Source: Bacteroidia bacterium
GTDB taxonomy: Bacteria; Bacteroidota; Bacteroidia; NS11-12g; UBA9320
Length of the DNA: 64,000 bases
Direction: 5' to 3'
Assembly: GCA_965216465.1 (NCBI GenBank)
Contig: CBDCFW010000006.1
Coordinates: forward strand, 320,001-384,000
The translations under genes were made by a program, and so were the position numbers. Below are positions 2,963-63,162 of this stretch, piece after piece (position 1 is the stretch's first letter; each line of letters starts with the position of its first letter). Under the pieces are notes generated by a model that worked only from the letters and a program-made list of their open reading frames with translations, was not told where the DNA came from and ran no database searches.

Positions 2963-5689
2963 CTATCGCCTTTTGTCTACAGGACCACCAACATCTTTTT
3001 TAGGCGTTGGTTTCTTGATTTTATAGGTCACCGTTCCCATTACATAGCGCGTAATGGTGTTAGTTCGATTCTCTACAAATCGGTTTGCACTCCACCATCG
3101 CCAAACATTCTGATTCTTATCTAAAATGTCATAGGCTCTAACTCCTAAGCTCCATTTCTGCTCTTTATCAATAAACACAGAGAACGACGAACTCCAGATT
3201 GGAATACTTAACTGCCCAACGGTTGAGTTGCTACCAAATAACTCCCAATATAATTCACTTGACCACTCAACACGATCGATTGGCGTCCAAATAAACTCAG
3301 CATCCACTTCGTGATAACCGAATGGATTATTCTCTACTCCACCAATGCTCCCTTGTTTCCAAGTGTATAGGTAACGCAGGTCTAAACTCACCTTATCAAA
3401 CTCATTCAATTGAATACGCGGCCCTATAGAATAACCGCTATTTAAGCTTAGCACATCTTCCTTGTTTTGGATGAAGTAAGAACGATTGAAATCATATTCA
3501 ATCTCAAGTCCTAATGTTGCTTTCAGCTTAGCTACAGGCCAGTTGAATGAAAAGTCGTGGTTTGAATATACGTGGTCTTTATAATTCAAGTACTCAGCTA
3601 CAGAATAATTGTCTTCTGTAATTGTATTGCTGTTCACAATTGGTTTGAGTGAAAAAGATGTCCAGCCACCAATTGAAACAGATTTGCCCAAACCGAAAAA
3701 TCTTCGGTAGTGCCAACCGTTGTTGTAGTTAATATAATTCTGTAAGTCTATTGCTCCAACCTTGGTTACGTATGGGTTGCTATTATCGCGAACAGGAATA
3801 ATCTGAGCTACTTGAGGCTTTCTTACACTCGCTCTAAAATTGAATCTGAAATCGTATTTATGAGCCTTCTGAGAGCGAATCCACATAAACGGAATAAAGA
3901 ACTTCTGATTGAAACTGTACGATGCAGTTGTATCGGTCGTAAACGTTCTTTCTTCAATAGTTTGATTGATTTCTGGAACAAAGTAAATGTTCGTAAAAGA
4001 ATCCAACTGATAGCGAATATGCATGAAGTACTCCATATTTTGAGCGGTTACTTGCCCTACAGGACTTTGTTCTGGAATTTCTTCCGCACCAGCTGGAATC
4101 CATCTAAAATCGTGCTCATAGGTGCTGCGCATCCAATTGAAACCGGGTCTGATGGTCCATTTTTTTGATAGCACTATTTGGTATGCCGAAGTGGTTGCCA
4201 CAGTTTGTTGAGCAGTAGTTAATTTTTGATCTAACAACGAAGCTTCTTCGTTTGGTATCGGCAATAAAAATGAGTCAACCGTATTGAAATAAGAACTGTA
4301 GGCATTGCTTAGTTCTGATTGATCGTAATACACTGAACCTAAAAAGTGATTCTCCTTTTTCAGTTTCATTTTGCGGGTCCAATGCAGTTTCGTCACAACT
4401 TTATAGTCGCCGCTTTCAACATTGTCACGGTCTACACCACTGTTCAAAATCGACTCGGTATCTATAAAATTAAATGTTCGCGACATGTTTGTAGCTGCGT
4501 CAGCACTGGTATTAAATTGCCCTCTGAACACAAATCGATTGAGTGTATCGGGTTCAAACTCTACCTTAGAATTTATTTGATGCTGATTACGTGTTCCGTT
4601 TGCTTGTTCACGCGAGTCTGAAAAAAGAGTATTGTCGGTCAGGTAAACTTCTGAATTTGACTCAGCAATCTTTGTAGATTCTTCGTTGGTCAGAACATAT
4701 GCCACATCGGTCTTCATTCCCTCGATTGGCTCAAAATGTAAATTTGCTCCAACTCCGTTATACGATTTAATCCCTCCGCTCCACCACATGGTACGGTTAT
4801 TACTGTTAAATGGGTTTATCTCGAACGATTGAAGGGTTTGCATGGCACGCCATCCGTAAAGTCGGCGGTTTAAATTATTTGCACCACCTATAATAGAAAG
4901 TTGAGTTTCATCTTTAAAGAAATTAATATTTCCGTGGCCGTCGTAATAATTCTGATCGCCTAGTCCTCCTCTTAGTGTTCCAAAATATCCTTGTGTATGC
5001 TCCTCTTTAAGCACTAGGTTGATTACTTTTTCGCGTTGACTATCATCTTGGCCGGTAAATTCATCTTCATCTGTTTTCTTATCAATTACTTCAACCTTGT
5101 CAACCAATGAAGCATCCAAATTTTTTGTAGCCGCTTCAACATTCCCGCCAAAAAATTCTTTTCCATTAATCATTACTTTGGTAACGGTTTGTCCTTCAAC
5201 ATTTACGCTTCCATCTTTATTTACTTGAATACCTGGCATTTTTCGAATGAGGTCTTCAACTGTGGCATTCGATTGCGTTTTAAAGCTTGATGCATTGTAC
5301 ATTACCGTATCGCCATTTAGCAGGATAGGAATCTTTTTGGCCACAACCATTACTTCTTCGATGCTCATTGTAGATGCTGCTAATGAAATATCTACGTTTT
5401 TCTGGTCACGGTTAATGTCTATTTCATGATATTTTACCTCATAACCCACGCTAGCAATCACCAAATAATAGGTTCCTTGCTCCACTCCGCGGATGGCATA
5501 TTTTCCATTTTCATCAGAAACAGCGAATTGAACTACAGAAGAATCTGCAATTTCCGACAAAGCAATGCTAGCAAAAGGCACAGCTTTCCCCTCAGTATCA
5601 GTAATTTGACCTGCTATGTTAAATCGGGCTGCCGACGCCGAAATGCTAAATAGTAGGAAAGCACAAATCGTAAATAGAGCTTTTGGCAT
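2963..5689 (-). CDS. TonB-dependent-receptor-like outer membrane beta-barrel with carboxypeptidase-regulatory-like N-domain
   Basis: Signal peptide; GQITD..GKAVPFASI; GDTVMYNA; VEDLIRKMPG; NGKEFFG; C-terminal YDILD..RYVMGTVTY strand. Confidence 0.85.
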   Translation of the reverse strand: MPKALFTICAFLLFSISASAARFNIAGQITDTEGKAVPFASIALSEIADSSVVQFAVSDENGKYAIRGVEQGTYYLVIASVGYEVKYHEIDINRDQKNVDISLAASTMSIEEVMVVAKKIPILLNGDTVMYNASSFKTQSNATVEDLIRKMPGIQVNKDGSVNVEGQTVTKVMINGKEFFGGNVEAATKNLDASLVDKVEVIDKKTDEDEFTGQDDSQREKVINLVLKEEHTQGYFGTLRGGLGDQNYYDGHGNINFFKDETQLSIIGGANNLNRRLYGWRAMQTLQSFEINPFNSNNRTMWWSGGIKSYNGVGANLHFEPIEGMKTDVAYVLTNEESTKIAESNSEVYLTDNTLFSDSREQANGTRNQHQINSKVEFEPDTLNRFVFRGQFNTSADAATNMSRTFNFIDTESILNSGVDRDNVESGDYKVVTKLHWTRKMKLKKENHFLGSVYYDQSELSNAYSSYFNTVDSFLLPIPNEEASLLDQKLTTAQQTVATTSAYQIVLSKKWTIRPGFNWMRSTYEHDFRWIPAGAEEIPEQSPVGQVTAQNMEYFMHIRYQLDSFTNIYFVPEINQTIEERTFTTDTTASYSFNQKFFIPFMWIRSQKAHKYDFRFNFRASVRKPQVAQIIPVRDNSNPYVTKVGAIDLQNYINYNNGWHYRRFFGLGKSVSIGGWTSFSLKPIVNSNTITEDNYSVAEYLNYKDHVYSNHDFSFNWPVAKLKATLGLEIEYDFNRSYFIQNKEDVLSLNSGYSIGPRIQLNEFDKVSLDLRYLYTWKQGSIGGVENNPFGYHEVDAEFIWTPIDRVEWSSELYWELFGSNSTVGQLSIPIWSSSFSVFIDKEQKWSLGVRAYDILDKNQNVWRWWSANRFVENRTNTITRYVMGTVTYKIKKPTPKKDVGGPVDKRR

Positions 5690-5723
5690 GATTAAGAAAC
5701 GAATATGGAGGCTAAAAAGTTGC

Positions 5724-7031
5724 TTAGTTTATATCTTTCGACCAATTAGCACGATCGCTAGGTGAAAATTGCCATGGTGCTTGATTGTTCTCGATGTTGC
5801 TATTCATCATATTCCATTCGCTTGGCATATCTGCTTTCTCCATGGCGAGGTATTGACGCATTCCGAAAATAATCTCAACCGGGTTAATGTTCACTGGACA
5901 AGCTTCAACACAGGCATTGCACGTAGTGCAAGCCCAAAGTTCTTCTTTTGAAATATAATCGTGAAGAGATTTACCGTCGTGGTGATCTGCTCCTTCAGCT
6001 GCTTTGGCCTTGCCAAGTTCTTCCATACGATCTCGGGTATCCATCATCACCTTACGTGGACTTAGTTTTTTACCGGTAAGATTTGCTGGGCAGTTGCTTG
6101 TACAACGACCACACTCTGTACACGTATATGCATCTAGCAGACTCTTCCAACTTAAATCAGTCACATCGTTCACTCCAAATTTCTCAGGAGGTGCCATATT
6201 TGGATCTGCTTTCGACGGATCGAGCATCATATTCACCTCGTTGGTAATTTCAGGCATATTATCAAGTTGTCCAACTGGCTTTAAGCGAGAATACCAAGTA
6301 TTTGGGAAGGCTAAAATGATATGCAGATGCTTGCTGTAAGGCACATAGTTAAGGAAGAAAAGAATTCCAATGATATGGAACCACCAGAAAACACGTTCGA
6401 AAATAATGAGGGTACTGGTAGAAAATCCTTCGAACCAAGGCACTAGAAATTGTGAGATTGGAAAAGATCCAGCAGCGATATAGTGTTCATCTCCTCGAGC
6501 TTGAAGCACTTGATCAGCAGCATTCATTTTGAGCAGTGCTGCCATCAAAACAATTTCCATTACGAGGATATAAGTGGCATCTTGTGTGGCCCATCCTTTC
6601 ATTTCAGGCTTATGGAAACGAGGAATTTTAGCAATAAATCTTCTCGTTAAGAAAATAGCACAAGCTATTAAAACGAGGATGGCTAATACTTCAAAGAAAC
6701 CAATTGCTGCGTTATATACAGGGCCTAAAACCGAGAGAACACGGTGGGTTCCGAAGAGGCCATCGATTACAATTTCGAGAACTTCAATATTGATGAGGAT
6801 GAATCCGACGTATACAATAATGTGCAGGAAACCAGCAACAGGACGAACAACCATCTTACTTTGACCAAGCGCTACTTTCGCCATGGTTTTCCAACGAAGG
6901 GCTTTGTTATCGTTAATTACTTCATCTTTCCCGAGGTTAATATTCTTGCGAATTCGGGTAATAGATTTGGTGAAGAAGTAAATGGCGGTGCCCAGTACCA
7001 GGAGGAAGATTATTTGTTCTAAATACTGCAT
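5724..7031 (-). CDS. Membrane-bound 4Fe-4S dicluster oxidoreductase (FadF N-terminal-like)
   Basis: Several TM helices, PYSKHLHI, CTECGRCTSNCP and CTTCNACVEACP; ATG 7031 preferred to TTG 7046. Confidence 0.9.
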   Translation of the reverse strand: MQYLEQIIFLLVLGTAIYFFTKSITRIRKNINLGKDEVINDNKALRWKTMAKVALGQSKMVVRPVAGFLHIIVYVGFILINIEVLEIVIDGLFGTHRVLSVLGPVYNAAIGFFEVLAILVLIACAIFLTRRFIAKIPRFHKPEMKGWATQDATYILVMEIVLMAALLKMNAADQVLQARGDEHYIAAGSFPISQFLVPWFEGFSTSTLIIFERVFWWFHIIGILFFLNYVPYSKHLHIILAFPNTWYSRLKPVGQLDNMPEITNEVNMMLDPSKADPNMAPPEKFGVNDVTDLSWKSLLDAYTCTECGRCTSNCPANLTGKKLSPRKVMMDTRDRMEELGKAKAAEGADHHDGKSLHDYISKEELWACTTCNACVEACPVNINPVEIIFGMRQYLAMEKADMPSEWNMMNSNIENNQAPWQFSPSDRANWSKDIN

Positions 7032-53549: not shown

Positions 53550-54770
53550 TTACTTCCAGTTTTCAAGTTTTCCTTCTTTAGTGAGTTTAACAACCACCGC
53601 TTTAGGTCGATATTTATTTAAGCCTAAGCCCATATCTCCAGTCGTTCCAGCTATAAGATAACTTCCGTCATCAAGTTTAATAATATCGTTAAATTCTACT
53701 CTATCCGGGAAATCATTGGATGTAATGACAATGTTTCCTGCTTCATCAAGTTCCGTTATGAAAGGAGTGCTAGACTGAGCGTTGTCACCACATATAACGG
53801 CACCTCCCTGAGGCAAGCCATTTATATTAGCTGGGGAACCATCTAATTTTTTAGACCACAGCTTATTCATCACAAAGTCCGTTTGATGAACCGTATAATT
53901 TCTCATATAAGAACGATAAAGATTGTGGTCTATCGATAAACGATCTATATCAAGTCCAAGACTGTAAACCATACCATTCGTGATAACCGGATTTTTTGGA
54001 TGAGCAGTAGGATACTCATGTTTTACAGAAACAGTATCAGTTAGCACCTTTGTTCGAAGAATTTCACCTGTATTCAAGTTAACCGCATATAACATCCGGT
54101 ACACTGTCGGGTAAAATTCAAAAGAGGTAGCATCCAAATACGCCGTGTCTTCTTCAATTCGATATAAAGACTCTATTTCTCGCTCTGAACTTCCATCAGA
54201 AAAAGTCGTAACAATTTCTACATTTCCATCTAGGGTAAATGCTATAATATAGTTTTGTTTCAAGTTTTTATGGCTAGAACATAAATAGAATTTGCCATCA
54301 GGACCAATTATCGGTTCCGAAAACTGACTAAATTCTGGAGCATTAAAATCTAAGTTTTGTATGGTATTAAGAATTTCGCCTTCTGGGCTAAAATGAATTA
54401 TTCGCCCTGTGCTCTGCCTTTGGCTTACTAAAATGCTTCCATCTGGCAACAACATGCAATTCATTTGAGTATAAAACAATCTTGATTCCGACTTAAGCTT
54501 TTTTTCCCAGAGAACGTTTCCATATACATCGGTCATCATCGCAAAAATGGTATCGTTGTCGTTTGAAGCATTATCCGTATTTCTTCCTAAAAAGAAGTAT
54601 TGATCGTCTGATACTTTTAAAACTGAGGTGAAGAATCCATTAAACTGGTTATAGGTTTTTATGTATGACGAATGAGCATCTTTTAACCCAACTTCTTTTT
54701 GACAAGAAATCTGCAGCATCACAAATACCACCAAACTAAAAATGAGCTTTATGTTTTTCGTAATCATCAT
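53550..54770 (-). CDS. Beta-propeller-like lipoprotein, type B copy 2
   Basis: Lipobox QISC; TDVYGNVLWEK, SEPIIGPDGKFYL, C-terminal AGT.G.G..KY. Confidence 0.7.
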   Translation of the reverse strand: MMITKNIKLIFSLVVFVMLQISCQKEVGLKDAHSSYIKTYNQFNGFFTSVLKVSDDQYFFLGRNTDNASNDNDTIFAMMTDVYGNVLWEKKLKSESRLFYTQMNCMLLPDGSILVSQRQSTGRIIHFSPEGEILNTIQNLDFNAPEFSQFSEPIIGPDGKFYLCSSHKNLKQNYIIAFTLDGNVEIVTTFSDGSSEREIESLYRIEEDTAYLDATSFEFYPTVYRMLYAVNLNTGEILRTKVLTDTVSVKHEYPTAHPKNPVITNGMVYSLGLDIDRLSIDHNLYRSYMRNYTVHQTDFVMNKLWSKKLDGSPANINGLPQGGAVICGDNAQSSTPFITELDEAGNIVITSNDFPDRVEFNDIIKLDDGSYLIAGTTGDMGLGLNKYRPKAVVVKLTKEGKLENWK

Positions 54771-55987
54771 TTAACAGGCATTTTTACTTGACCTTTACTA
54801 TCTAAAACATATCGAGTTAATGAGCTCTGTTTTGTCTCGTCGATAGTTTGAACGAGTACCACTAAATCCTCCCCCTCGGTTGTTGAACCCATAGCTAGCT
54901 GAAACAACTCAGTAGATCCTAAAGGGGCATTCCATTGTTCTAATCCTTCTCGGTTTATGAACTGCACTATCGCCTCTTTGGGAGAATAAATACTAACAGA
55001 AAAATCATGTGACTTAGTCGCTCCCAAAATCACATAACCTTCCCTATAGGAATTCATTTCTTGAAACCTAAAATAACCTTTTGATATATACCCATTTCGG
55101 TCTTTTTCTTTTGTCATTTGAGCAGTCATATGATTTAATACAACAGACCTACGGTACGGTGAAGTGGTTTGAAGTTGGTGAGCAAACATATAGCGTTGGT
55201 TTGGTAAGAGAATGGTCTTGCTTCTTAGATTTACATGCCGTTCTAAAGGACCATTTCCAAGCTGATTTACTCCCATTCGATCTCCAATTCCTATCAGGCT
55301 TAAGTCGGTACTTGAAACCTTTTGAGAATACATTTGCACCACATAATGAACTCCTAATTGAGCTGCTACCTGGCACAAAATTTCATCGTTGTTTATCTGT
55401 ATAATATCTACAATATGAGATTGAAAATTAGGGTCTGGGTGGTCCGATACTGTTATGATAGTATCTGAAGGGCTATATTTAGCCAAGAGCTGTCGTGTTT
55501 CTCCGACTCCGGTTCTACCTGCAACAATGAGGGAACCGTCTGAAGCTTCAATAACACTTAGCCACTGTTCCAAGGCACCAGAGTCAGTTAGCACCTCATT
55601 AAGTATAACTCCTTCTTGATTGATTGTGCACAGCAACGCTTTTGAATCTCCAAAGTCTGCTCCTTTTTCCAGAGCAAGTGTGTAGCCCACGGCCACATAA
55701 TCTCCATTTGCTTTTTGAATAACATCGGTAAAATTTCCGTTATGGTATTCCGGATATGTTTGGTGAAATTTGGGTTTAAGATCAGCATCCAACACAAGAA
55801 TAGTTGGAACATCATTAGAAGAACCAACAACTACAAATTCGTTGTCTTTGTTCACAATGGTTTTTTCCATTCGATCAAAGTCTGCACATCGGTAAATTTT
55901 GAGCTGATTTGAATCAAGCACTTGCTCCTGACGTGTACAAGAGAAGAGGTTAGCAACAAGGATTATTATGATAAATCTATTGATCAA
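54767..55987 (-). CDS. Beta-propeller-like lipoprotein, type A copy 2
   Basis: Lipobox LFSC; PTILVLDADL, GNFTDVIQKANGDYVAVGYT. Confidence 0.7.
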   Translation of the reverse strand: MINRFIIIILVANLFSCTRQEQVLDSNQLKIYRCADFDRMEKTIVNKDNEFVVVGSSNDVPTILVLDADLKPKFHQTYPEYHNGNFTDVIQKANGDYVAVGYTLALEKGADFGDSKALLCTINQEGVILNEVLTDSGALEQWLSVIEASDGSLIVAGRTGVGETRQLLAKYSPSDTIITVSDHPDPNFQSHIVDIIQINNDEILCQVAAQLGVHYVVQMYSQKVSSTDLSLIGIGDRMGVNQLGNGPLERHVNLRSKTILLPNQRYMFAHQLQTTSPYRRSVVLNHMTAQMTKEKDRNGYISKGYFRFQEMNSYREGYVILGATKSHDFSVSIYSPKEAIVQFINREGLEQWNAPLGSTELFQLAMGSTTEGEDLVVLVQTIDETKQSSLTRYVLDSKGQVKMPVK

Positions 55988-56092
55988 GTTTGAGGTTATA
56001 CCGTTAACAGTCTTTGCAATATAACGATTTAAAAAACAACCGATAACTCAATGCAAAAATGAGAGTTGCATATTATTTACTATCTTCCACCA

Positions 56093-56515
56093 ATGAAGTA
56101 TGGTTTCTGGGTTCTGATTTGCGTGTCTTTATTGTTTGGTTGTGCAACCGAGCAAAAAGTAGAGCCCATGGAAGCAGAAGACCTTTTAACCTTAGATGGT
56201 TGGTGGCCTGTTTATGCATTTCAAAATGGCATTGAAACACCGTTAGCCTCATGCAGTAAGGAGATAGAAATCTTTTATCGTCTAGATGGAACAGGAAGCC
56301 GTCATAGATATACCCCATGCGACACATTGGATCCAGCACAACAAGACTTTGAGTGGGAACTGATTAACAACAACCACCAAATTGTTATCATAAATAATGG
56401 CGTAAGAGACACGAACACCATTGTAAAATTAACCAAAGACGTATTCAAGGTTAAGTGGGAGCTTGACCAGTTTGGCGGTATTGTTGAAGTTTTAGAGCTT
56501 GAACTTCGTCATTGA
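56093..56515 (+). CDS. Lipocalin-like lipoprotein
   Basis: Lipobox LFGC; L...W, C..., DGT, W.L, IVKLT pattern. Confidence 0.6.
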   Translation: MKYGFWVLICVSLLFGCATEQKVEPMEAEDLLTLDGWWPVYAFQNGIETPLASCSKEIEIFYRLDGTGSRHRYTPCDTLDPAQQDFEWELINNNHQIVIINNGVRDTNTIVKLTKDVFKVKWELDQFGGIVEVLELELRH

Positions 56516-56611
56516 AGGGCAACGAAATTTGCATTTTTTTCAAGGTCTGAAAGAAAACTTGCCTGATTCTATTCAAAAAGTAGTTGTATTTATTTCACCT
56601 ATATTTGTTAG

Positions 56612-57832
56612 ATGCAGGTTACCCCTAAAATTTTGAAATTGCTATTAGTTTCATTGCTCTGGGTATCGTGCAAGCCTGACAAAATTCCTGCTGAAAACCA
56701 AACAATTCGTTTACATAACCAACATGAATTCGATGACGTGCGTAAGGCTATACACATGTCAGATGGTAGTTCTGTATACATCGGAGTGAGCGGTGGTCAA
56801 CCCTCAGTTCTAGCATTGAACAGTGATTTTAGTCTGAAGTATTTTAAACGATTTTCTGACTATGGACCAGGAGGTTTTAATAACGTATGTGAAATGACTA
56901 ATGGTGATATTGCAATAGTGGGCTACACCAATTCTTCGACTCTTGGTGCTTCTGCAGCAAATAGAAATGCTTTGATGATCCGCATAAATCAAGAAGGCGA
57001 TTTCATCTCATATTTCACGGATACAACAAACAATGCTAACGATCAATTTACCGCAGTTAAAAGTTTGCAAAATGAAGAGCTACTTTTATCTAGCTATTCA
57101 GGAACCCGGGTAACCACATTCCAGCTCAATGCAAATTCAAAGTTAGTGAATAGCCGCAAGGAATGGTTTAACGGCAATGAGGTAAGAGAAGGCTATTGCA
57201 ATTCGTTATTTACAGCACCGAATGGCAAATATGTTGAAATAGGAAATCATACAGTCAGTCAGTTGTCTACCGCGATGACTTTATATGCTATCGAAATTTA
57301 TGCCGATCAGCTTACAAAACCTAACAATTTGAACACCTACCGTGCCTATAATCCGAGGTCTTGGAACAATGTTGCTAAGTTTGCACCAATTCGAGGAGAA
57401 GCATGTCCATCAGAAAACAACGGAGGCTTATTTTATGGAACTACTAATTTTTCAGACAATAAATATTCTATATTACTTTTAGGAATGCATAACGCGGGGG
57501 GCATCTATCTTGAACGCCAGTTCTATGGAAATGGTCAAGCCGTTTTTCAGAATATGGTACCTTTTAGCAAGGGGTATCTTTTATTAGGTTCTACCGTAGA
57601 CTCAACCAAAAGTTTTCAAGCGAACACCTACGACACCTACATCGCTGCCATAGATGAACAAGGCAACTTATTATGGGAACAAACCATCCATTCTGAGTCA
57701 AGAGGTGAATCGGCACTTTCGGCACACGAAGAAGATGGAATTATCAGAGTCTCTGGCTTTACACAAACCAAAAATTCGAATTTTAGCTTTTTACAAGTAT
57801 ATCACGACATCAATGGCAACTTAATTCATTAG
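56612..57832 (+). CDS. Beta-propeller-like lipoprotein, type A copy 3
   Basis: Lipobox WVSC; PSVLALNSDF, GGFNNVCEMTNGDIAIVGYT. Confidence 0.7.
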   Translation: MQVTPKILKLLLVSLLWVSCKPDKIPAENQTIRLHNQHEFDDVRKAIHMSDGSSVYIGVSGGQPSVLALNSDFSLKYFKRFSDYGPGGFNNVCEMTNGDIAIVGYTNSSTLGASAANRNALMIRINQEGDFISYFTDTTNNANDQFTAVKSLQNEELLLSSYSGTRVTTFQLNANSKLVNSRKEWFNGNEVREGYCNSLFTAPNGKYVEIGNHTVSQLSTAMTLYAIEIYADQLTKPNNLNTYRAYNPRSWNNVAKFAPIRGEACPSENNGGLFYGTTNFSDNKYSILLLGMHNAGGIYLERQFYGNGQAVFQNMVPFSKGYLLLGSTVDSTKSFQANTYDTYIAAIDEQGNLLWEQTIHSESRGESALSAHEEDGIIRVSGFTQTKNSNFSFLQVYHDINGNLIH

Positions 57833-57836
57833 AATC

Positions 57837-59123
57837 ATGAAATACGTCTCTTTTAAAATATTCACTTTAATCCTATTAACCGTTGCAGCAAGTTCATGCA
57901 AGAAAGATGACGTAGCGGATCGAAGCAGTGGTCTGTTTGCCGGAATTTACGAGCACAATGGAAGCAATGCAACTAACGAATTAATTCCGTTTAATTTGAG
58001 TTGCGCAATTGAAAGCAGTACAGGGCACCTGTATACCACATCAACAGAAAATATCTCCCCAGATATATTCTTAGTCGTTATGAAAACAGATGCCGAAGGC
58101 AACAAAGAATGGATTAAAAGCTATCCTGTGCTTAGACGATTGGATACCAATATTTGGAACATCATAGAGTTGGAAGATGGTACACTTTTTATAAACTCAA
58201 GAAGAACAGATGAAATTTTGAGAATTAATTCAGAAGGAGACATCATCTATCATAAAACGTTTATCGATGATTGGGATAACGAACTGCAAACCGAAGCCAT
58301 CTCAGAACCATTGGTTCAGGAAGACGGCACGCTGTATCTTTCTGCACGTTATAGTGGATCCAGATTCAACCCTCCCACTAAAGTAAAAACGGTTTCAATA
58401 GACGAAAATGGTGATGCAATTGTCCTTCAGCAGTGGACTGATGAGAATTTTGCGACTATACTATATCACAATGTGGTATATGTTGATGTTGCCAACGATT
58501 CTGTATGGTATATCAGTAGTGCACCGGTTAAACAAGGTATAAATTCAACAGTACTGTTAAATTTTCATCAACAAAATCTTGGAGAAATTCCGACGGGTTG
58601 GTCTGATATGCTTTCGCCTCCAGAAGATACCGCAAACAATTTGGGAATTGTGCCCAATCATAGTTTAAGCGGTCCGCAACGCCACGGAACGGAGTTGCTT
58701 GTGTTATCTTCTCCTGATTTAGCTTTTGGAGTACCAATTCCAAATGGAAATCCAATTCGGTTTTGCAGATCTACAATTGATTGGGCAGCTGATGTTTATA
58801 AGGAGCGGAAATTAATTCATCATCCCACTTATTCTTATAGTGCTCGTTCGTTTACACGGACCGAAGAAGGCGAGTATTATATCTGTGGTGTAGTTGATCA
58901 AGGACTTCCTTCAGAAAAAGCATTTTTGGTAAAGCTGAATAACGATTTAGAAGTAGTTTTAGAAAAATACGACTATGATGAAACATATCGGTTTAACCAT
59001 ATCAGCATGTGTGAAGATGGTAACTTACTAATTTGTGGCTACACCATTGGTTCGGGGCAAGGAAATGACACCAAAACTAAATGGAACTTACTTTGTCGTT
59101 TGGATGCTGATGGGTCATTATAG
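57837..59123 (+). CDS. Beta-propeller-like lipoprotein, type B copy 3
   Basis: Lipobox ASSC followed by KKDD; KTDAEGNKEWIK, SEPLVQEDGTLYL, CGYTIGSGQG. Confidence 0.7.
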   Translation: MKYVSFKIFTLILLTVAASSCKKDDVADRSSGLFAGIYEHNGSNATNELIPFNLSCAIESSTGHLYTTSTENISPDIFLVVMKTDAEGNKEWIKSYPVLRRLDTNIWNIIELEDGTLFINSRRTDEILRINSEGDIIYHKTFIDDWDNELQTEAISEPLVQEDGTLYLSARYSGSRFNPPTKVKTVSIDENGDAIVLQQWTDENFATILYHNVVYVDVANDSVWYISSAPVKQGINSTVLLNFHQQNLGEIPTGWSDMLSPPEDTANNLGIVPNHSLSGPQRHGTELLVLSSPDLAFGVPIPNGNPIRFCRSTIDWAADVYKERKLIHHPTYSYSARSFTRTEEGEYYICGVVDQGLPSEKAFLVKLNNDLEVVLEKYDYDETYRFNHISMCEDGNLLICGYTIGSGQGNDTKTKWNLLCRLDADGSL

Positions 59124-59268
59124 ATGTATTAACATCATTATTTGTCTTCGAATCAACCTCCATCCTCTCACGCTCCATGCTCCCAAACCCAATCAAGCTT
59201 CCCATCATATTTCCTTACACCAAAAAATGCACATTCATGTAGGTAGTTTTCTACTTCGTATCAGAGTT

Positions 59269-61647
59269 TCACTCCTTAACCCACCTTCCTCTATACACCC
59301 CATTATCGTTACGTATTTCCACTATGTATATACCTGAATCAAGTCCTTGAACATTTATGGAATTTGAAAAGAGCTGTTTAGTCATAACCAAAGCTCCTTG
59401 TAAGTTATAAATGCGTAATTCTCCCTGATGGATATCGCCTACTTTGATAAAGTCAATACCAGGATTAGGATATAGTTTAAGATTTTGGGGTGTTTGCTCA
59501 ATTCCAGCACCACTTATCACCGTGATGGTTATTTCTGCACTAGAGGAACATCCAAATTTATCTAATACGGTTACCGAGTATGTATAATCTCCATGTGTAA
59601 AGTCTTGTCCAACAATGTTCAAGGTATCAAAGCTATCTTGTGTATTCCAAGCATAGTTTACAAATCCTTCTCCTGGGGAGAGTTTGGCTGAGCTGTCTCT
59701 AGGAAGTTTGAAATCCCCGCCTAAACTTATGTCTTGAGGTGTATGCACATGAATGGTTGCGGTATCCGAATAGAAAGCATCCCCACATTGATTATACCAA
59801 TAAACACGATACCTGTCTCCACTATCAGAATCCTGCAAACTTGAGAAAGGAAATTTTGAAGTGTTATTCGAAGCACTTAAAAAGGCTGAACCGTTGTCAC
59901 TCTTTTCCCAAAGACTTGTTAGATTTACCCCTCTAGCAATACCGGTTAATGTATCACTCAATGCTTCGCATAATTCAATATCCGCTGGCATCTCTTCAAC
60001 GTCTATTCGATCAGCCAAAGCTTGTACTTCAAAAGGCCCTATATCAGATGTATCATCCCATATTCTTTCGTATCCGTTAAGATCACTTAGCTTACTAAGA
60101 ATGTCTGCATGAACACTTCCTTTGTAGTATATTGGAATAGGCTGTGCGTAACCTTTATTAAAACCGTATGGCCGTCTTGAGCATGTTTGAGTAAGCGTGA
60201 AATCACCATTTGCCGTATCTTTAAATTTTGGATAATCTTCTAAGCAGTCTTGGTATACCCCGGAAAATGTAAAAGTAGAATCAAATCGGTCTTGGATGGT
60301 GCTTGTTCCTCCGCCGAGTATACAATTGTAAAATTCACTTGGCACTTTATTTCCTTCATCAATAGATAAATTAACAACATCCCCGTAATAGTTTCTATTG
60401 TTCCAAAATATGCAGTTGTAAAACTTAAAATGGGCGTTATCTACATATTCTGCAGCGCTTGAGTTTCTTGGGTAGGTAGTATTATCTGTAGGACTTTTCC
60501 ACTTTCTGTAATTGTTTACAAAGGCACAGTTTATCATCGTTACATCTTCAGTCGTCGTAATCCCTATTGAATTTCTTGTAAACAGACAATTAATTATTCT
60601 TGCATGACTTACATCGCGAATAAGCCCTATTGCTCTTCTATTATTTATGAATTTACAATTGTATATCATTGATGCCGATGCCTCCTTCCCCCCAATACAC
60701 CCTGCAGTAGTCGTACTGTTCTTAAATGTACAATTCTGAATCACGCCTTTAGTGCAATTCCTAGTAAACGACACATCACCAGCAAATATTGATTCTCCAA
60801 AGGTTCCGTCGAATGTACAGTTATCAACCACTCCTGTAAAATCAAACAAGCGAAGAGTGGTGAACTCATTATTTTTGAAATAACAAGATGTAATATTCGC
60901 AAGTTTTGATAAACCTATGGCATCGGAATAAATGTCTTGAAAAAAACAATTTTCGATGTTGAATTCTTCTCCATTAGTAACTTCACCAACAGATATGCCT
61001 GAATAGCAATTTATAAATGTGCAATCAGAAACTTTGAAATTTCCTCGTAGTAAAATTCCAGATGTCAAGTTTTTTGAAATGGAATAGGACCCAAACGGTT
61101 GATTGTCAAAAAACTTACAATCTGACATCCAGCAATCACCGTCTCTGACATCCACTCCACTATTCACTCTTCTAAACGTACTGTTCTTAATTCTAAGTGG
61201 TGAAGAAGCCATGCTTTGTATTCCAACAGAGCGAATAGAAGAGTTAAAACCCGGTTGTTTTAGCCAGGTGAATTGTCTATTTGATGAATGGGTATACTCA
61301 ACTAGGCAATAATCGAAAGAATTAGTATCGCTATCTGGATTGTTAACAATAACAACTCCACCCCAACCAACTAATGAGTCAGAACATGTAAGCATAATTT
61401 TGTCGCTTGAAGTCCCAATACATTTGATGTTTCCTCTTACTATCAGTTTTACCGTATCTGCGAAGTCCATAGTCACACCAGCTTCAACTATTAATAAACT
61501 GTCTGCTGGCACAGTTACATTGTCAGAAACATAATATGGGCTACTGGCCTTGGACAGTGTTCCTGAGAGTGTACCTCCAGAAATTGTAGTCTGTGCAAAG
61601 TTTAAAAGTGGTGTTAAGAGTAAAAATAGTAAATAGAAGTTTTTCAT
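59269..61647 (-). CDS. T9SS type A sorting-domain protein with right-handed beta-helix repeats
   Basis: Signal peptide at 61647; SPY.V, WGG, repeated (I/V).NC.F..N, DIGPFE; CTD LYPNP..IYNLQG..GIYIV. Confidence 0.85.
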   Translation of the reverse strand: MKNFYLLFLLLTPLLNFAQTTISGGTLSGTLSKASSPYYVSDNVTVPADSLLIVEAGVTMDFADTVKLIVRGNIKCIGTSSDKIMLTCSDSLVGWGGVVIVNNPDSDTNSFDYCLVEYTHSSNRQFTWLKQPGFNSSIRSVGIQSMASSPLRIKNSTFRRVNSGVDVRDGDCWMSDCKFFDNQPFGSYSISKNLTSGILLRGNFKVSDCTFINCYSGISVGEVTNGEEFNIENCFFQDIYSDAIGLSKLANITSCYFKNNEFTTLRLFDFTGVVDNCTFDGTFGESIFAGDVSFTRNCTKGVIQNCTFKNSTTTAGCIGGKEASASMIYNCKFINNRRAIGLIRDVSHARIINCLFTRNSIGITTTEDVTMINCAFVNNYRKWKSPTDNTTYPRNSSAAEYVDNAHFKFYNCIFWNNRNYYGDVVNLSIDEGNKVPSEFYNCILGGGTSTIQDRFDSTFTFSGVYQDCLEDYPKFKDTANGDFTLTQTCSRRPYGFNKGYAQPIPIYYKGSVHADILSKLSDLNGYERIWDDTSDIGPFEVQALADRIDVEEMPADIELCEALSDTLTGIARGVNLTSLWEKSDNGSAFLSASNNTSKFPFSSLQDSDSGDRYRVYWYNQCGDAFYSDTATIHVHTPQDISLGGDFKLPRDSSAKLSPGEGFVNYAWNTQDSFDTLNIVGQDFTHGDYTYSVTVLDKFGCSSSAEITITVISGAGIEQTPQNLKLYPNPGIDFIKVGDIHQGELRIYNLQGALVMTKQLFSNSINVQGLDSGIYIVEIRNDNGVYRGRWVKE

Positions 61648-61764
61648 ACGTCGAATATAATTATTTAACAATGTTAGAATTAAGTTCGAAGAAAAAATCA
61701 TCTTAATGTCTAGGTTGTGAGTTAGGAGAATGACCAGAAAAATTTTTAGAAATAATCCCCACAA

Positions 61765-61823
61765 ACTTTAGCTCCATCAACGTCTTCTTTGGAGTGGCTA
61801 GTGCGTGGCAAGGGACGTTGATG
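61765..61823. repeat. Palindromic repeat, left module copy 1
   Basis: 61765-61810 is 44/46 identical to 62363-62408 and closes its own stem CATCAACGTC...GACGTTGATG. Confidence 0.9.
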
Positions 61824-61980
61824 ACAATCTAAAAAATGATCTGTAGTTTGTGATAAGATGATTTGCCTTTTTTCGTTGATAGAAAGAGGCACTAGAATGT
61901 TAGTATGTTGTGTAGTCATCATGAGCGGGTTAAAGTGACAATGATGTACCTCTATTTATCTTCATAAAACTTGTGGGTAC

Positions 61981-62034
61981 CAAATGTCAAAATTAATCCT
62001 CAACGTACTCTACGAGAGACGTTGTGGCAGAGTA
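61981..62034. repeat. Palindromic repeat, right module copy 1
   Basis: AAATTAATCCTCAACGTACTCTACGAGAGACGTTGTGG matches the right halves of copies 2 and 3. Confidence 0.85.
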
Positions 62035-62058
62035 AACATTGTTCTAACTCACGAATAC

Positions 62059-62349
62059 TTAATCGTGTTGCTCGTAAAACTCTAATACAGTATTTTCTCT
62101 TTCTAATTTCTCAGCCAGTACCCTTGCCTCTTGCTCATCTTTGTAATTGCATAAAATAGCTAGTACAGATTTACTTAAATCTTTTTTGTCCAAATAGCTT
62201 ACTTCATTAACTTCAAATCTTACGTTATCTAAATGAAAAATTTGGCCAACCATAATCTCACCATCTAAAATGTCTAGGCCAATAACTAGTTTTTGTCTAG
62301 ACGGCAGGTAAAATGAATCAACTACTTTGGCTTCAGCTGTTCTGACCAT
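62059..62349 (-). CDS. Hypothetical 96-aa protein between repeats
   Basis: ORF with TATATTTG box ending 4 nt before ATG. Confidence 0.6.
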   Translation of the reverse strand: MVRTAEAKVVDSFYLPSRQKLVIGLDILDGEIMVGQIFHLDNVRFEVNEVSYLDKKDLSKSVLAILCNYKDEQEARVLAEKLERENTVLEFYEQHD

Positions 62350-62362
62350 ATATCAAATATAT

Positions 62363-62464
62363 ACTTTAGCTCCATCAACGTCTCCTTTGGAGTGGATAGT
62401 GCGTGGCACATGCCAAAATTAGAACTTTATCCTCAACACCCTCTCCGAGAGACGTTGAGGGAGT
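62363..62464. repeat. Full ~100-bp palindromic repeat, copy 2
   Basis: Terminal inverted arms CTCCATCAACGTCTC ... GAGACGTTGAGGGAG (14/15). Confidence 0.9.
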
Positions 62465-62607
62465 ATTATTTTATCTGTCTAATGTATAAAATTTAAGTGT
62501 TGAGGTCATCCTACTGTTTGATTGTATTTCAGTTTTACGCTTTCATAAACCAAATTATGTCTTGCAGTTTGGAGCTTTTACCTAAATTTGGAAATGACAA
62601 ACTTTTT

Positions 62608-62808
62608 ATGATTATTGGCCAACTAATAGTACAAATTTTAAATTTTTCCATAATTGCTTTGCCGATTATCCTAGTTACTATATTTGTTAGAAAACCTAAG
62701 CAGAAGTTAGGTTTTTATGTTACTTATTCTATACTAACATTAATTGCAATGTGGGTGATGTACTATTTTAGTATCGCTCTTGAATTTGCTGACGGAATGG
62801 GACCTTAG
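62608..62808 (+). CDS. Small 2-TM hypothetical protein between repeats
   Basis: MIIGQLIVQ... 66 aa; TAAATTTG at 62583-62590; ORF track extends it to 62497. Confidence 0.5.
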   Translation: MIIGQLIVQILNFSIIALPIILVTIFVRKPKQKLGFYVTYSILTLIAMWVMYYFSIALEFADGMGP

Positions 62809-62810
62809 TA

Positions 62811-62915
62811 ATTTCAACTTCATCAACTTCTCCTTTTGCTTGTCCGGTGTGTAGCCAAGTGTCAATATTAGAAATTAATCCTCAACGTCCTATTCGAGAG
62901 ACGTTGAGGGGAGTA
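62811..62915. repeat. Full palindromic repeat, copy 3 (left half degenerate)
   Basis: Left 46 nt are 31/46 ungapped identical to copy 2; right half AAATTAATCCTCAACGTCC..CGAGAGACGTTGAGGG. Confidence 0.85.
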
Positions 62916-62919
62916 ATGT

Positions 62920-63029
62920 AAAATCAACCCACAAAAAAGGCCCCTCCAAACAGAGGGGCCTTATGAAAATCTGCGGTCTGGACGGGACTCGAACCCGTCC
63001 CCAAAGCCTTGGGGATGACAGGCAGGTAT
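62920..63029 (-). pseudogene. Tandem partial duplicate of the tRNA-Asp 3' part plus terminator, with hairpin substitution
   Basis: AAAATCAACCCACAAAAAA recurs at 62920 and 63034; tRNA 5' part absent; 12 tRNA nt replaced by TCCCCAA-AGCC-TTGGGGA. Confidence 0.85.
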
Positions 63030-63046
63030 CTCCAAAATCAACCCAC

Positions 63047-63074: not shown

Positions 63075-63088
63075 TTTATGAAAATCTG

Positions 63089-63162
63089 CGGTCTGGACGG
63101 GACTCGAACCCGCGACCCCCTGCGTGACAGGCAGGTATTCTAACCAACTGAACTACCAGACC
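63089..63162 (-). tRNA. tRNA-Asp (GTC)
   Basis: GGTCTGGTAGTTCAGTTGGTTAGAATACCTGCCTGTCACGCAGGGGGTCGCGGGTTCGAGTCCCGTCCAGACCG; promoter box TATATTTG at 63180-63187 (minus). Confidence 0.97.

What the first reader, a model, noticed from the sequence alone, without database searches (positions are those of the whole stretch)
61765..62915. Palindromic ~100-bp repeats separating small genes beside tRNA-Asp: integron-cassette-like array without an integrase
Seen: two full copies (62363-62464, 62811-62915) and one split copy (61765-61823, 61981-62034). The outer arms CTCCATCAAC|GTCTC ... GAGAC|GTTGAGGGAG pair 14/15, and an inner arm CCTCAAC.. can pair with the same right arm as an alternative hairpin. 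Each intervening gene has its own -7 box and stops shortly before an AAC arm. The minus-strand gene starts about 30 nt after a GTT arm. Known: attC sites are imperfect palindromes bounded by AAC...GTT that flank single-gene cassettes. Inference: a cassette-capture array using non-canonical att sites with a recombinase in trans, or a MITE/REP-like family.
Basis: partly seen in the sequence, partly recalled or inferred. Interest (0 to 1): 0.7.

Follow-up and report, generated by a model that had tools for sequence, protein, structure and literature searches.

The report
Decayed transposase hairpins bracketing orphan genes
The repeats are shrunken remains of a hairpin-flanked single-strand transposase element (REP/RAYT) rather than integron sites, and related genomes suggest these hairpins likely mark joins where small orphan genes were swapped in.

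Summary
The repeats are real but are not attC sites. They are three tandem, internally deleted copies of a Bacteroidota REPtron: a RAYT (HUH/Y1 transposase) gene between inverted hairpins. The 'split' copy is the least deleted and keeps the RAYT 3' end (HMM iE 1.8e-4). The two ~100-bp copies fuse the left hairpin and RAYT leader to the outer half of the right hairpin, which explains the alternative pairing. No intact RAYT or integron integrase was found in this genome.

In relatives the hairpin flanks intact RAYT genes. Its stem covaries, so AAC/GTT is not conserved, while the GTCT…GGAC core is.

The cassette idea partly survives with another enzyme. At one orthologous site two genomes carry different genes between the same hairpins, with breakpoints about 8 nt outside the stems. 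All 6 hairpin-enclosed ORFs lacked a homologue here, against 57 of 354 others, and three ORFs are cut at the hairpin foot. Against this, the sites also take hairpin-free inserts, one pair brackets a common gene, and no circles were seen.

The scan noted a similar locus before (e1-4567306). Verdict: new variant of a known kind; capture is unproven.

The parts
61767..61774 (+). 8-nt unpaired 5' foot of the right-hand REP of copy r1; outer boundary of the element
   Evidence: Conservation 5' of the stem ends at -8
61775..61823 (+). Downstream (right-hand) REP of r1, long-loop type (29 nt between GTC and GAC)
   Evidence: Hairpin scan, fold; 29-32-nt loop REPs flank RAYTs in L089 and L098
61831..61923 (-). 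RAYT 3' remnant (about residues 157-187, with the SS motif and one in-frame stop)
   Evidence: Best match in own genome; tblastn 50% over 30 aa; HMM iE 1.8e-4; 0 of 300 shuffles reach the score
61924..61997 (-). RAYT leader (with -7-type box at 61995) and probable decayed 5' coding remnant
   Evidence: DNA match to the G014 RAYT 5' end, 0 of 1000 shuffles; not significant against G001 (277 of 1000) or at protein level (41 of 300)
61998..62035 (-). Upstream (left-hand) REP hairpin of r1 (61998-62027) with its 5' foot
62059..62349 (-). Gene A, 96 aa, near-ORFan; predicted stand-alone EF-Tu domain-II-like barrel; own -7-type box at 62354-62361
   Evidence: Only itself in the 5.8-billion-protein search; 3 remote homologues; 0 of 400 phylum genomes; model pLDDT 80, Foldseek E 4.5e-3 to PF0907/Pbp11
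62365..62468 (-). Copy r2: left REP (62431-62460), RAYT leader with -7-type box and start codon (62409-62407), fused at a TGCC microhomology to the outer half of the right REP
   Evidence: Alignments; its right half is 44 of 46 identical to r1
62497..62808 (+). Gene B, 83-103 aa depending on start, hydrophobic ORFan; stop codon 4 nt before the r3 foot
62813..62917 (-). Copy r3: same fused architecture as r2, more diverged; left REP at 62880-62909
62921..63035 (-). Tandem duplicate of the tRNA-Asp 3' part and its terminator (context)
   Evidence: (family D3)
63088..63162 (-). tRNA-Asp(GTC), beside which the array sits (context)

Best explanation
The three repeats are internally deleted, non-autonomous copies of a Bacteroidota REPtron (a RAYT HUH/Y1 transposase gene between two inverted GTCT-loop-GGAC hairpins), and the two orphan genes between them were likely joined in by that transposase, which is predicted to cut and rejoin single-stranded DNA about 8 nt 5' of the hairpin. 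Shown: the identity of the repeats, the RAYT remnant, the deletion series, the hairpin family with its covarying stem and one-sided foot, and homology boundaries near -8. Inferred: RAYT binds one strand's hairpin (fixed T.G pair), nicks near -8 (Y|T, in line with the C|T cleavage published for other RAYTs) and strand-transfers the end to unrelated DNA. This would add, swap or truncate genes next to the element. The 598-bp unit between the two 96%-identical right ends (RAYT remnant, left REP, gene A) is likely the latest addition. With no intact RAYT found in this genome, the array is likely frozen and decaying.
For: (1) In 2 same-genus genomes the hairpin flanks an ORF matching NF047646 REP_Tyr_transpos (E 2e-8). 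(2) That protein's best match in the window's genome is the middle of the 'split' copy. (3) r2 and r3 align without a large gap to the G001 and G014 REP + leader + start codon. (4) 40 of 79 metagenomic RAYT loci carry the hairpin under a strict scan, 20 of 64 just upstream and 30 of 65 just downstream of the gene. (5) 24 hairpins give 97% paired cells and 7 of 11 pairs with two-sided changes; the slid controls give 37-52%. (6) Conservation runs to -8 on the 5' side; it is weaker on the 3' side in the 47 hairpins from family genomes and absent in the 64 metagenome hairpins. In 11 paired copies, identity is 68% at -8..-1 and 24% at -34..-11. (7) At the orthologous tRNA-Val..dtd site, G007 and G017 are 78-79% collinear up to the feet of the same two REPs and carry unrelated genes between them. 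(8) 6 of 6 REP-enclosed ORFs have no tblastn hit in G000, against 57 of 354 other ORFs, in 52 same-genus loci. (9) Three ORFs are cut at or in a REP foot: 127 aa against homologue frames of 254-660 aa, 86 aa against 1641 aa, and 99 aa against an 878-aa paralogue. (10) In G001 a 100%-identical module ends exactly 8 nt 5' of the stem at two unrelated sites.
Against: No excised circle, empty site or variant of this array was seen. The 3 runs laid (one study, contigs at depth 2-5) showed no joints. The tRNA-Val..dtd site and the G014 site take REP-free inserts in other genomes, so they are general hot spots. A REP pair in G000 (C5:742456/744381) brackets a symporter found in 13 of 27 genus genomes. 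Two wider REP pairs were left out of the 6-of-6 count: L144 (3.4 kb; 1 of 2 ORFs has a weak hit) and L194 (3.9 kb, fetched later; 2 of 3 ORFs have hits). The count rests on 5 loci in 4 related genomes, so its p-value overstates. G017 has a shorter fragment of the 86-aa gene at the same site with no REP seen in the 600 bases printed, which fits deletion rather than capture. No cargo gene was found REP-flanked at two different sites. Two of the 11 boundary pairs (window L1/L2 and L2/L3) show no clear match at -8..-1. E. coli TnpA-REP is a monomer with no ready route to circle excision (PMC3479197, passage).
Confidence: 0.6

Rival explanations
1. Same elements, passive role. The REPtron and its REPIN-like derivatives hopped or duplicated locally into spacers of a tRNA-adjacent accessory region whose genes arrived by other routes. 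The -8 boundary is simply the end of the element, and swaps or truncations come from adjacent deletion or RecA recombination between repeats.
For: The sites are hot spots without REPs. Single REPs and doublets sit between ordinary genes (L142, L146, L148, L152; 7 single hairpins in G000). A REP pair brackets a common symporter. The T9SS gene and lipoprotein genes left of the array have no homologue at this site in the 19 relatives either.
Against: The G007/G017 swap has both breakpoints at REP feet with non-coding homology kept right up to them. Enclosed segments are compact single-gene units (322 and about 340 bp here). REP-enclosed ORFs lack homologues more often than REP-adjacent ones (6 of 6 against 8 of 16).
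Confidence: 0.32
2. Integron-like cassette array (CALIN) with non-canonical attC sites and a tyrosine recombinase acting in trans.
For: Direct repeats with a palindromic AAC...GTT frame separate single small ORFans.
Against: No attC core consensus. No IntI over the cut-off; only XerC/D-like hits far below it. AAC/GTT is replaced by GGG/CCC, AGA/TCT and others in homologous hairpins. The interior of the repeats is RAYT leader and gene.
Confidence: 0.03
3. The repeats are kept as RNA elements (bidirectional terminators or attenuators with alternative hairpins) controlling genes A and B.
For: Stable, mutually exclusive hairpins; both genes end just before a hairpin arm; r2 carries a -7-type box upstream of gene A.
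Against: No Rfam family other than tRNA reaches its gathering score. The alternative pairing follows directly from deleting one arm of two inverted REPs. Copies are decaying, with mismatches in the r1, r2 and r3 arms. A secondary effect on mRNA ends is not excluded.
Confidence: 0.05

Closest known systems
REPtron with TnpA-REP/RAYT of Quentin et al. 2018 subclass 2.6 (Bertels group 5), Bacteroidetes (PMC6006769)
   Same: HUH and YxHxNP motifs, SS tail, 187-196 aa, HUH-to-Y distance 83-85 (subclass median 82), Bacteroidota host, gene flanked by atypical non-GTAG hairpins with copies elsewhere in the genome.
   Different: The WQ motif is not kept (FK, WI, WE, FE). The GTCT-loop-GGAC hairpin with covarying outer stem and pyrimidine foot is not among the subclass 2.6 rows of Table S1 that I read. 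No cargo or deletion derivatives are described in the passages read.
REPIN/BIME doublets of E. coli and Pseudomonas (groups 2 and 3; PMC8266576, bioRxiv 2021.07.10.451892)
   Same: Non-autonomous units formed from the two inverted hairpins that flank the transposase; strand-specific hairpin with a fixed irregularity and a 5' foot; decay after RAYT loss.
   Different: No GTAG foot. Low copy number (a handful to about a dozen hairpins per genome), not hundreds. r2 and r3 have lost one inner arm and keep the RAYT leader.
Integron cassette arrays / CALIN (definition recalled, with passages in PMC8266576)
   Same: Single compact accessory genes separated by folded single-strand recognition sites; gene content differs between genomes.
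   Different: No attC cores, no IntI, both gene orientations, some genes cut mid-ORF, and the candidate enzyme is an HUH nuclease.
TnpA-REP/prochlorosin association in picocyanobacteria (bioRxiv 2020.03.09.984088)
   Same: Whole and truncated (often C-terminal) RAYT genes interspersed with variable small genes; proposed role in diversification.
   Different: [quoted passage not shown]

Membership tests
REPtron (RAYT + cognate REPs), derivative | Gene for an HUH/Y1 TnpA-REP protein between the hairpins | tested here: met
   Remnant in r1; intact homologues match NF047646 at E 2e-8, below its 80-bit cut-off (partial ORFs were scanned), and Y1_Tnp at E 0.005
REPtron (RAYT + cognate REPs), derivative | Inverted hairpins flanking the gene, conserved as structure across homologues | tested here: met
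   40 of 79 loci; covariation
REPtron (RAYT + cognate REPs), derivative | Copies of the hairpin elsewhere in the genome | tested here: met
   7 single hairpins with the same core but other stems in G000; Markov-simulated genomes gave 0 under the strict scan
REPtron (RAYT + cognate REPs), derivative | Hairpin bound and cleaved by the cognate RAYT | not testable with these tools
   Needs biochemistry
Canonical GTAG-REP / REPIN (groups 2 and 3) | 5' GTAG/GTGG foot | tested here: not met
   The foot is pyrimidine-rich
TnpA-Y1 subclass 2.6 | NH[LIV]H, YIH[QN]NP, SS tail, HUH-Y spacing about 82, Bacteroidetes | tested here: met
   NH[FIV]H in 7 of 8 aligned proteins (one has DHFH), Y[MI]HxNP, SS, spacing 83-85 (definition)
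TnpA-Y1 subclass 2.6 | WQ motif and placement in the subclass tree | tested here: inconclusive
   W present in 3 of 8 aligned proteins, Q in none; no tree against reference subclasses was built
Integron attC / CALIN | RYYYAAC and GTTRRRY core boxes | tested here: not met
   None on either strand of r1, r2 or r3
Integron attC / CALIN | Integron integrase available in the genome | tested here: not met
   TIGR02249 best 75.5 bits, cut-off 265
Integron attC / CALIN | Match to the IntegronFinder attC covariance model | not testable with these tools
   Model not available; Rfam gave no such hit
Classical MITE (DDE type) | Dispersed copies with target-site duplications | tested here: not met
   The 100-bp unit is confined to this locus; no duplicated flanks by inspection (not scripted)

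The most novel reading that the evidence does not exclude
A Bacteroidota RAYT clade and its GTCT-loop-GGAC hairpins form an integrase-free gene-cassette system: the HUH enzyme excises, inserts and swaps genes at a fixed cut 8 nt 5' of the hairpin, building small arrays next to tRNAs. This window is such an array, frozen after loss of the enzyme. It would supply a host benefit for RAYTs of a group not thought to maintain REPIN populations.
Probability: 0.3. Interest if true: 0.8.

Novelty: new variant of a known kind. Interest (0 to 1): 0.5.

Why it matters
Why bacteria keep RAYT transposases is an open question. The Bertels and Rainey preprint (passages) says no study links REPIN function to the RAYT beyond cleavage, and treats group 5 RAYTs as domesticated single-copy genes. 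Here a defined hairpin type, a predicted cut position (-8/-7), an intact enzyme (G014) and a natural two-allele swap (G007/G017) make 'RAYT as a gene-capture enzyme' directly testable. If the passive rival holds, the value is modest: a new REP type and a clear deletion series from REPtron to REPIN-like unit. It also warns that AAC...GTT palindromes between ORFans in Bacteroidota need not be attC sites.

Tried and rejected
Exact-pattern scans gave 1 viral hit inside a coding region (L010) and 2 archaeal hits (L011, L012, not examined); all were treated as chance. The RAYT alignment found no relatives in viral contigs.

A second RAYT-like HMM hit in G000 (C5:168916, iE 0.001) is an off-frame match inside an ordinary gene and was rejected. 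NF047646 found nothing in G000.

The N-terminal RAYT remnant in r1 is not significant as protein (41 and 274 of 300 shuffles). It is kept only as a DNA-level suggestion.

No RNA holder was listed. Laid contigs confirm the assembly (one contig spans 59200-62990 without differences) but show no joints at depth 2-5, which says nothing about rare circles.

Gene A's profile found nothing in 400 phylum genomes, so its context elsewhere is unknown. The Atlas look-ups for genes A and B returned no result. The 'longer' homologue search for the 127-aa ORF found none; the genome search did.

The bare core pattern without stem pairing is no more frequent than its control. Of 20 such sites fetched, 3 had true hairpins.

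None of 19 relatives has the array at tRNA-Asp, and none is close enough to give an exact empty site. The G014 'empty site' in G000, G024 and G008 is real but the site also takes REP-free inserts, so it was not counted as proof.

Literature searches listed no paper on REP-bounded gene capture by a Bacteroidota RAYT; the library lacks most subscription papers, and bioRxiv supplements were closed.

Full report
Observation. The three copies are present at the stated coordinates and are far beyond chance (BLAST E 3e-12, 6e-15 and 2e-8 within the 3.2-Mb genome). The 100-bp unit occurs only at this locus. r2 folds at z = -4.4 and can switch to an inner hairpin. The 14/15 outer pairing holds for r2 only (r3 10/15, r1 11/15), and only gene A has an exact upstream TAnnTTTG box. 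A T9SS sorting domain on the neighbouring gene points to a Bacteroidota host. A contig from a public run spans 59200-62990 without differences; that run may be the source sample.

What the repeats are. A search of 60 relatives found the hairpin in 4 same-genus genomes. In G001 and G014 it flanks an ORF with an HUH motif that matches NF047646, REP-associated tyrosine transposase. The best match of that protein in the window's genome lies inside the 'split' copy. Window 61831-61923 (minus) aligns to RAYT residues 158-187 at 50%, HMM iE 1.8e-4, with 0 of 300 shuffles reaching the score. The adjacent 61924-61997 matches the G014 leader and 5' end as DNA (0 of 1000 shuffles) but not the G001 one (277 of 1000), and not as protein. 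So r1 reads, on the minus strand: left REP, leader, gene remnant, right REP. r2 and r3 align to the REP, leader and start codon of the G001 and G014 elements and then jump into the loop of the right REP; in r2 the join is a TGCC microhomology. Because the two REPs are inverted copies, the surviving outer arm of the right REP pairs with the same arm as the left REP's inner arm. The direction of change is the reverse of 'split': r1 is the least deleted copy. No intact RAYT was found in the genome.

The family. 40 of the 79 carry a GTC-Y...R-GAC hairpin, mostly right beside the gene (no shuffled control for that scan). In 24 hand-picked 10-nt-loop hairpins, 97% of cells pair, 7 of 11 pairs change on both sides, and the GTCT/GGAC core with a T.G pair is nearly invariant. 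The hairpins were selected for pairing, so the percentage is inflated, but the exchange of AAC/GTT for GGG/CCC or AGA/TCT is plain. A pyrimidine-rich unpaired foot is conserved to position -8 on the 5' side; the 3' side shows weaker conservation in the 47 family hairpins and none in the 64 metagenome ones. G000 holds 7 further single hairpins with other stems; simulated genomes gave 0 under the strict scan. Motifs and spacing fit Quentin's subclass 2.6 except for the WQ motif. This hairpin type is not among the subclass 2.6 rows of that paper's Table S1 (parts 5 and 6 of 7 read).

Not an integron. There are no attC core boxes, no integron integrase over the cut-off, and the AAC/GTT letters are not conserved.

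Are the genes cargo? Genes A and B have no close relatives. A has three remote homologues, two of similar length, and a predicted EF-Tu domain-II-like barrel, so it is probably a whole, real gene. Both fill the space between REP feet almost exactly. For: (a) at the tRNA-Val..dtd site G007 and G017 are 78-79% collinear, share a RAYT 3' remnant (HMM hit weak, E 0.01-0.25), and lose homology within 3-8 nt of the feet of the same two REPs, with unrelated genes between. (b) 6 of 6 ORFs enclosed by REPs up to 2 kb apart lack a hit in G000, against 57 of 354 others and 8 of 16 REP-adjacent ones (5 loci in 4 related genomes, not independent). (c) In 11 paired copies, identity is 68% at -8..-1 and 24% further out. 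(d) Three ORFs are cut at a foot, and in G001 an identical module ends exactly at -8 at two unrelated sites. Against: both comparison sites take REP-free inserts in other genomes. A REP pair in G000 brackets a symporter present in 13 of 27 genus genomes. Two wider pairs (L144, L194) enclose genes with G000 hits. G017 keeps a shorter piece of the 86-aa gene with no REP seen in the 600 bases printed. Two of the 11 boundary pairs, both from this window, show no clear -8 match. No circle or variant was seen at low depth, and no cargo gene was found at two REP sites.

Mechanism. Published RAYTs bind one strand of the hairpin, cleave at C|T 5' or 3' of it and rejoin DNA (PMC8266576, passages; PMC3479197, passages). 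The -8/-7 letters here are mostly TT or CT, which fits such a cut; this is inference. I favour a model (0.6) in which RAYT-driven strand transfer at the foot joined foreign DNA to the element, with repeated addition and deletion giving the array. The right ends of r1 and r2 are 44 of 46 identical while the left ends are about 80%, so the 598-bp unit with gene A is likely the latest addition. The passive rival (0.32) cannot be excluded.

Literature seen: PMC6006769 (passages; Table S1 parts 5-6), PMC3733652, PMC5581495, PMC8266576, PMC3479197, PMC11194056 and bioRxiv 2021.07.10.451892 (passages), bioRxiv 2020.03.09.984088 (whole text, supplements closed). The integron definitions and the Bacteroidota -7 consensus are recalled. 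Searches listed no report of REP-bounded gene capture in Bacteroidota. An earlier agent of this scan reached a similar 'possible but not shown' view on another genome (e1-4567306); that is an unchecked note, seen after my reading was formed, and not independent support.

Verdict. A real feature and a new variant of a known kind: a decayed REPtron array with a REP type I did not find listed, and suggestive evidence that the REP foot is a gene-swapping junction. Interest 0.5.

Noticed in passing
window 62921-63035: Tandem 115-bp duplicate of the tRNA-Asp 3' part and terminator; part of the anticodon arm is replaced by a short palindrome. It begins 3 nt from the r3 foot.
   Followed up: partly
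window 53550-59123 and 59269-61647: A run of about 406-428-aa lipoprotein-like genes and a T9SS protein left of the array. Those within about 7 kb of the tRNA have no homologue at the tRNA-Asp locus of 19 relatives, so the array may be the edge of a larger accessory region.
   Followed up: partly
L171 (G007) about 3618 and L172 (G003) about 3592; L196 (G001) 3246: The same REP hairpin sits right after putative immunity genes in or beside RHS toxin C-terminal cassette regions.
   Followed up: no
L135 (G069) 4585-6438: A 95-aa gene is duplicated on both sides of a RAYT gene.
   Followed up: no
L194 and L195 (G001): A 100%-identical module (a 103-aa ORF fragment plus REP) occurs at least twice; one copy truncates a gene whose paralogue is 878 aa. 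Contigs break inside it, so its other end is unknown.
   Followed up: partly
L146 and L148 (G030); L142 (G001); L144 (G014): Two-hairpin REPIN-like doublets of this family with short spacers, near-identical at separate sites, although group 5 RAYTs are reported not to be associated with REPINs.
   Followed up: partly
L016/L130 (G001) RAYT gene: The G001 RAYT has one in-frame TAG, yet this genome shows the most recent-looking REP junctions.
   Followed up: no
runs X1-X3, window about 61937-61978: A contig at depth about 30, likely from another organism, matches the r1 leader and remnant region with two small insertions.
   Followed up: no
G000 C1:167733-168508: Two tandem near-identical 115-116-aa genes about 2 kb from a single REP hairpin; they look like four-helix-bundle proteins (recalled, not tested).
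   Followed up: no
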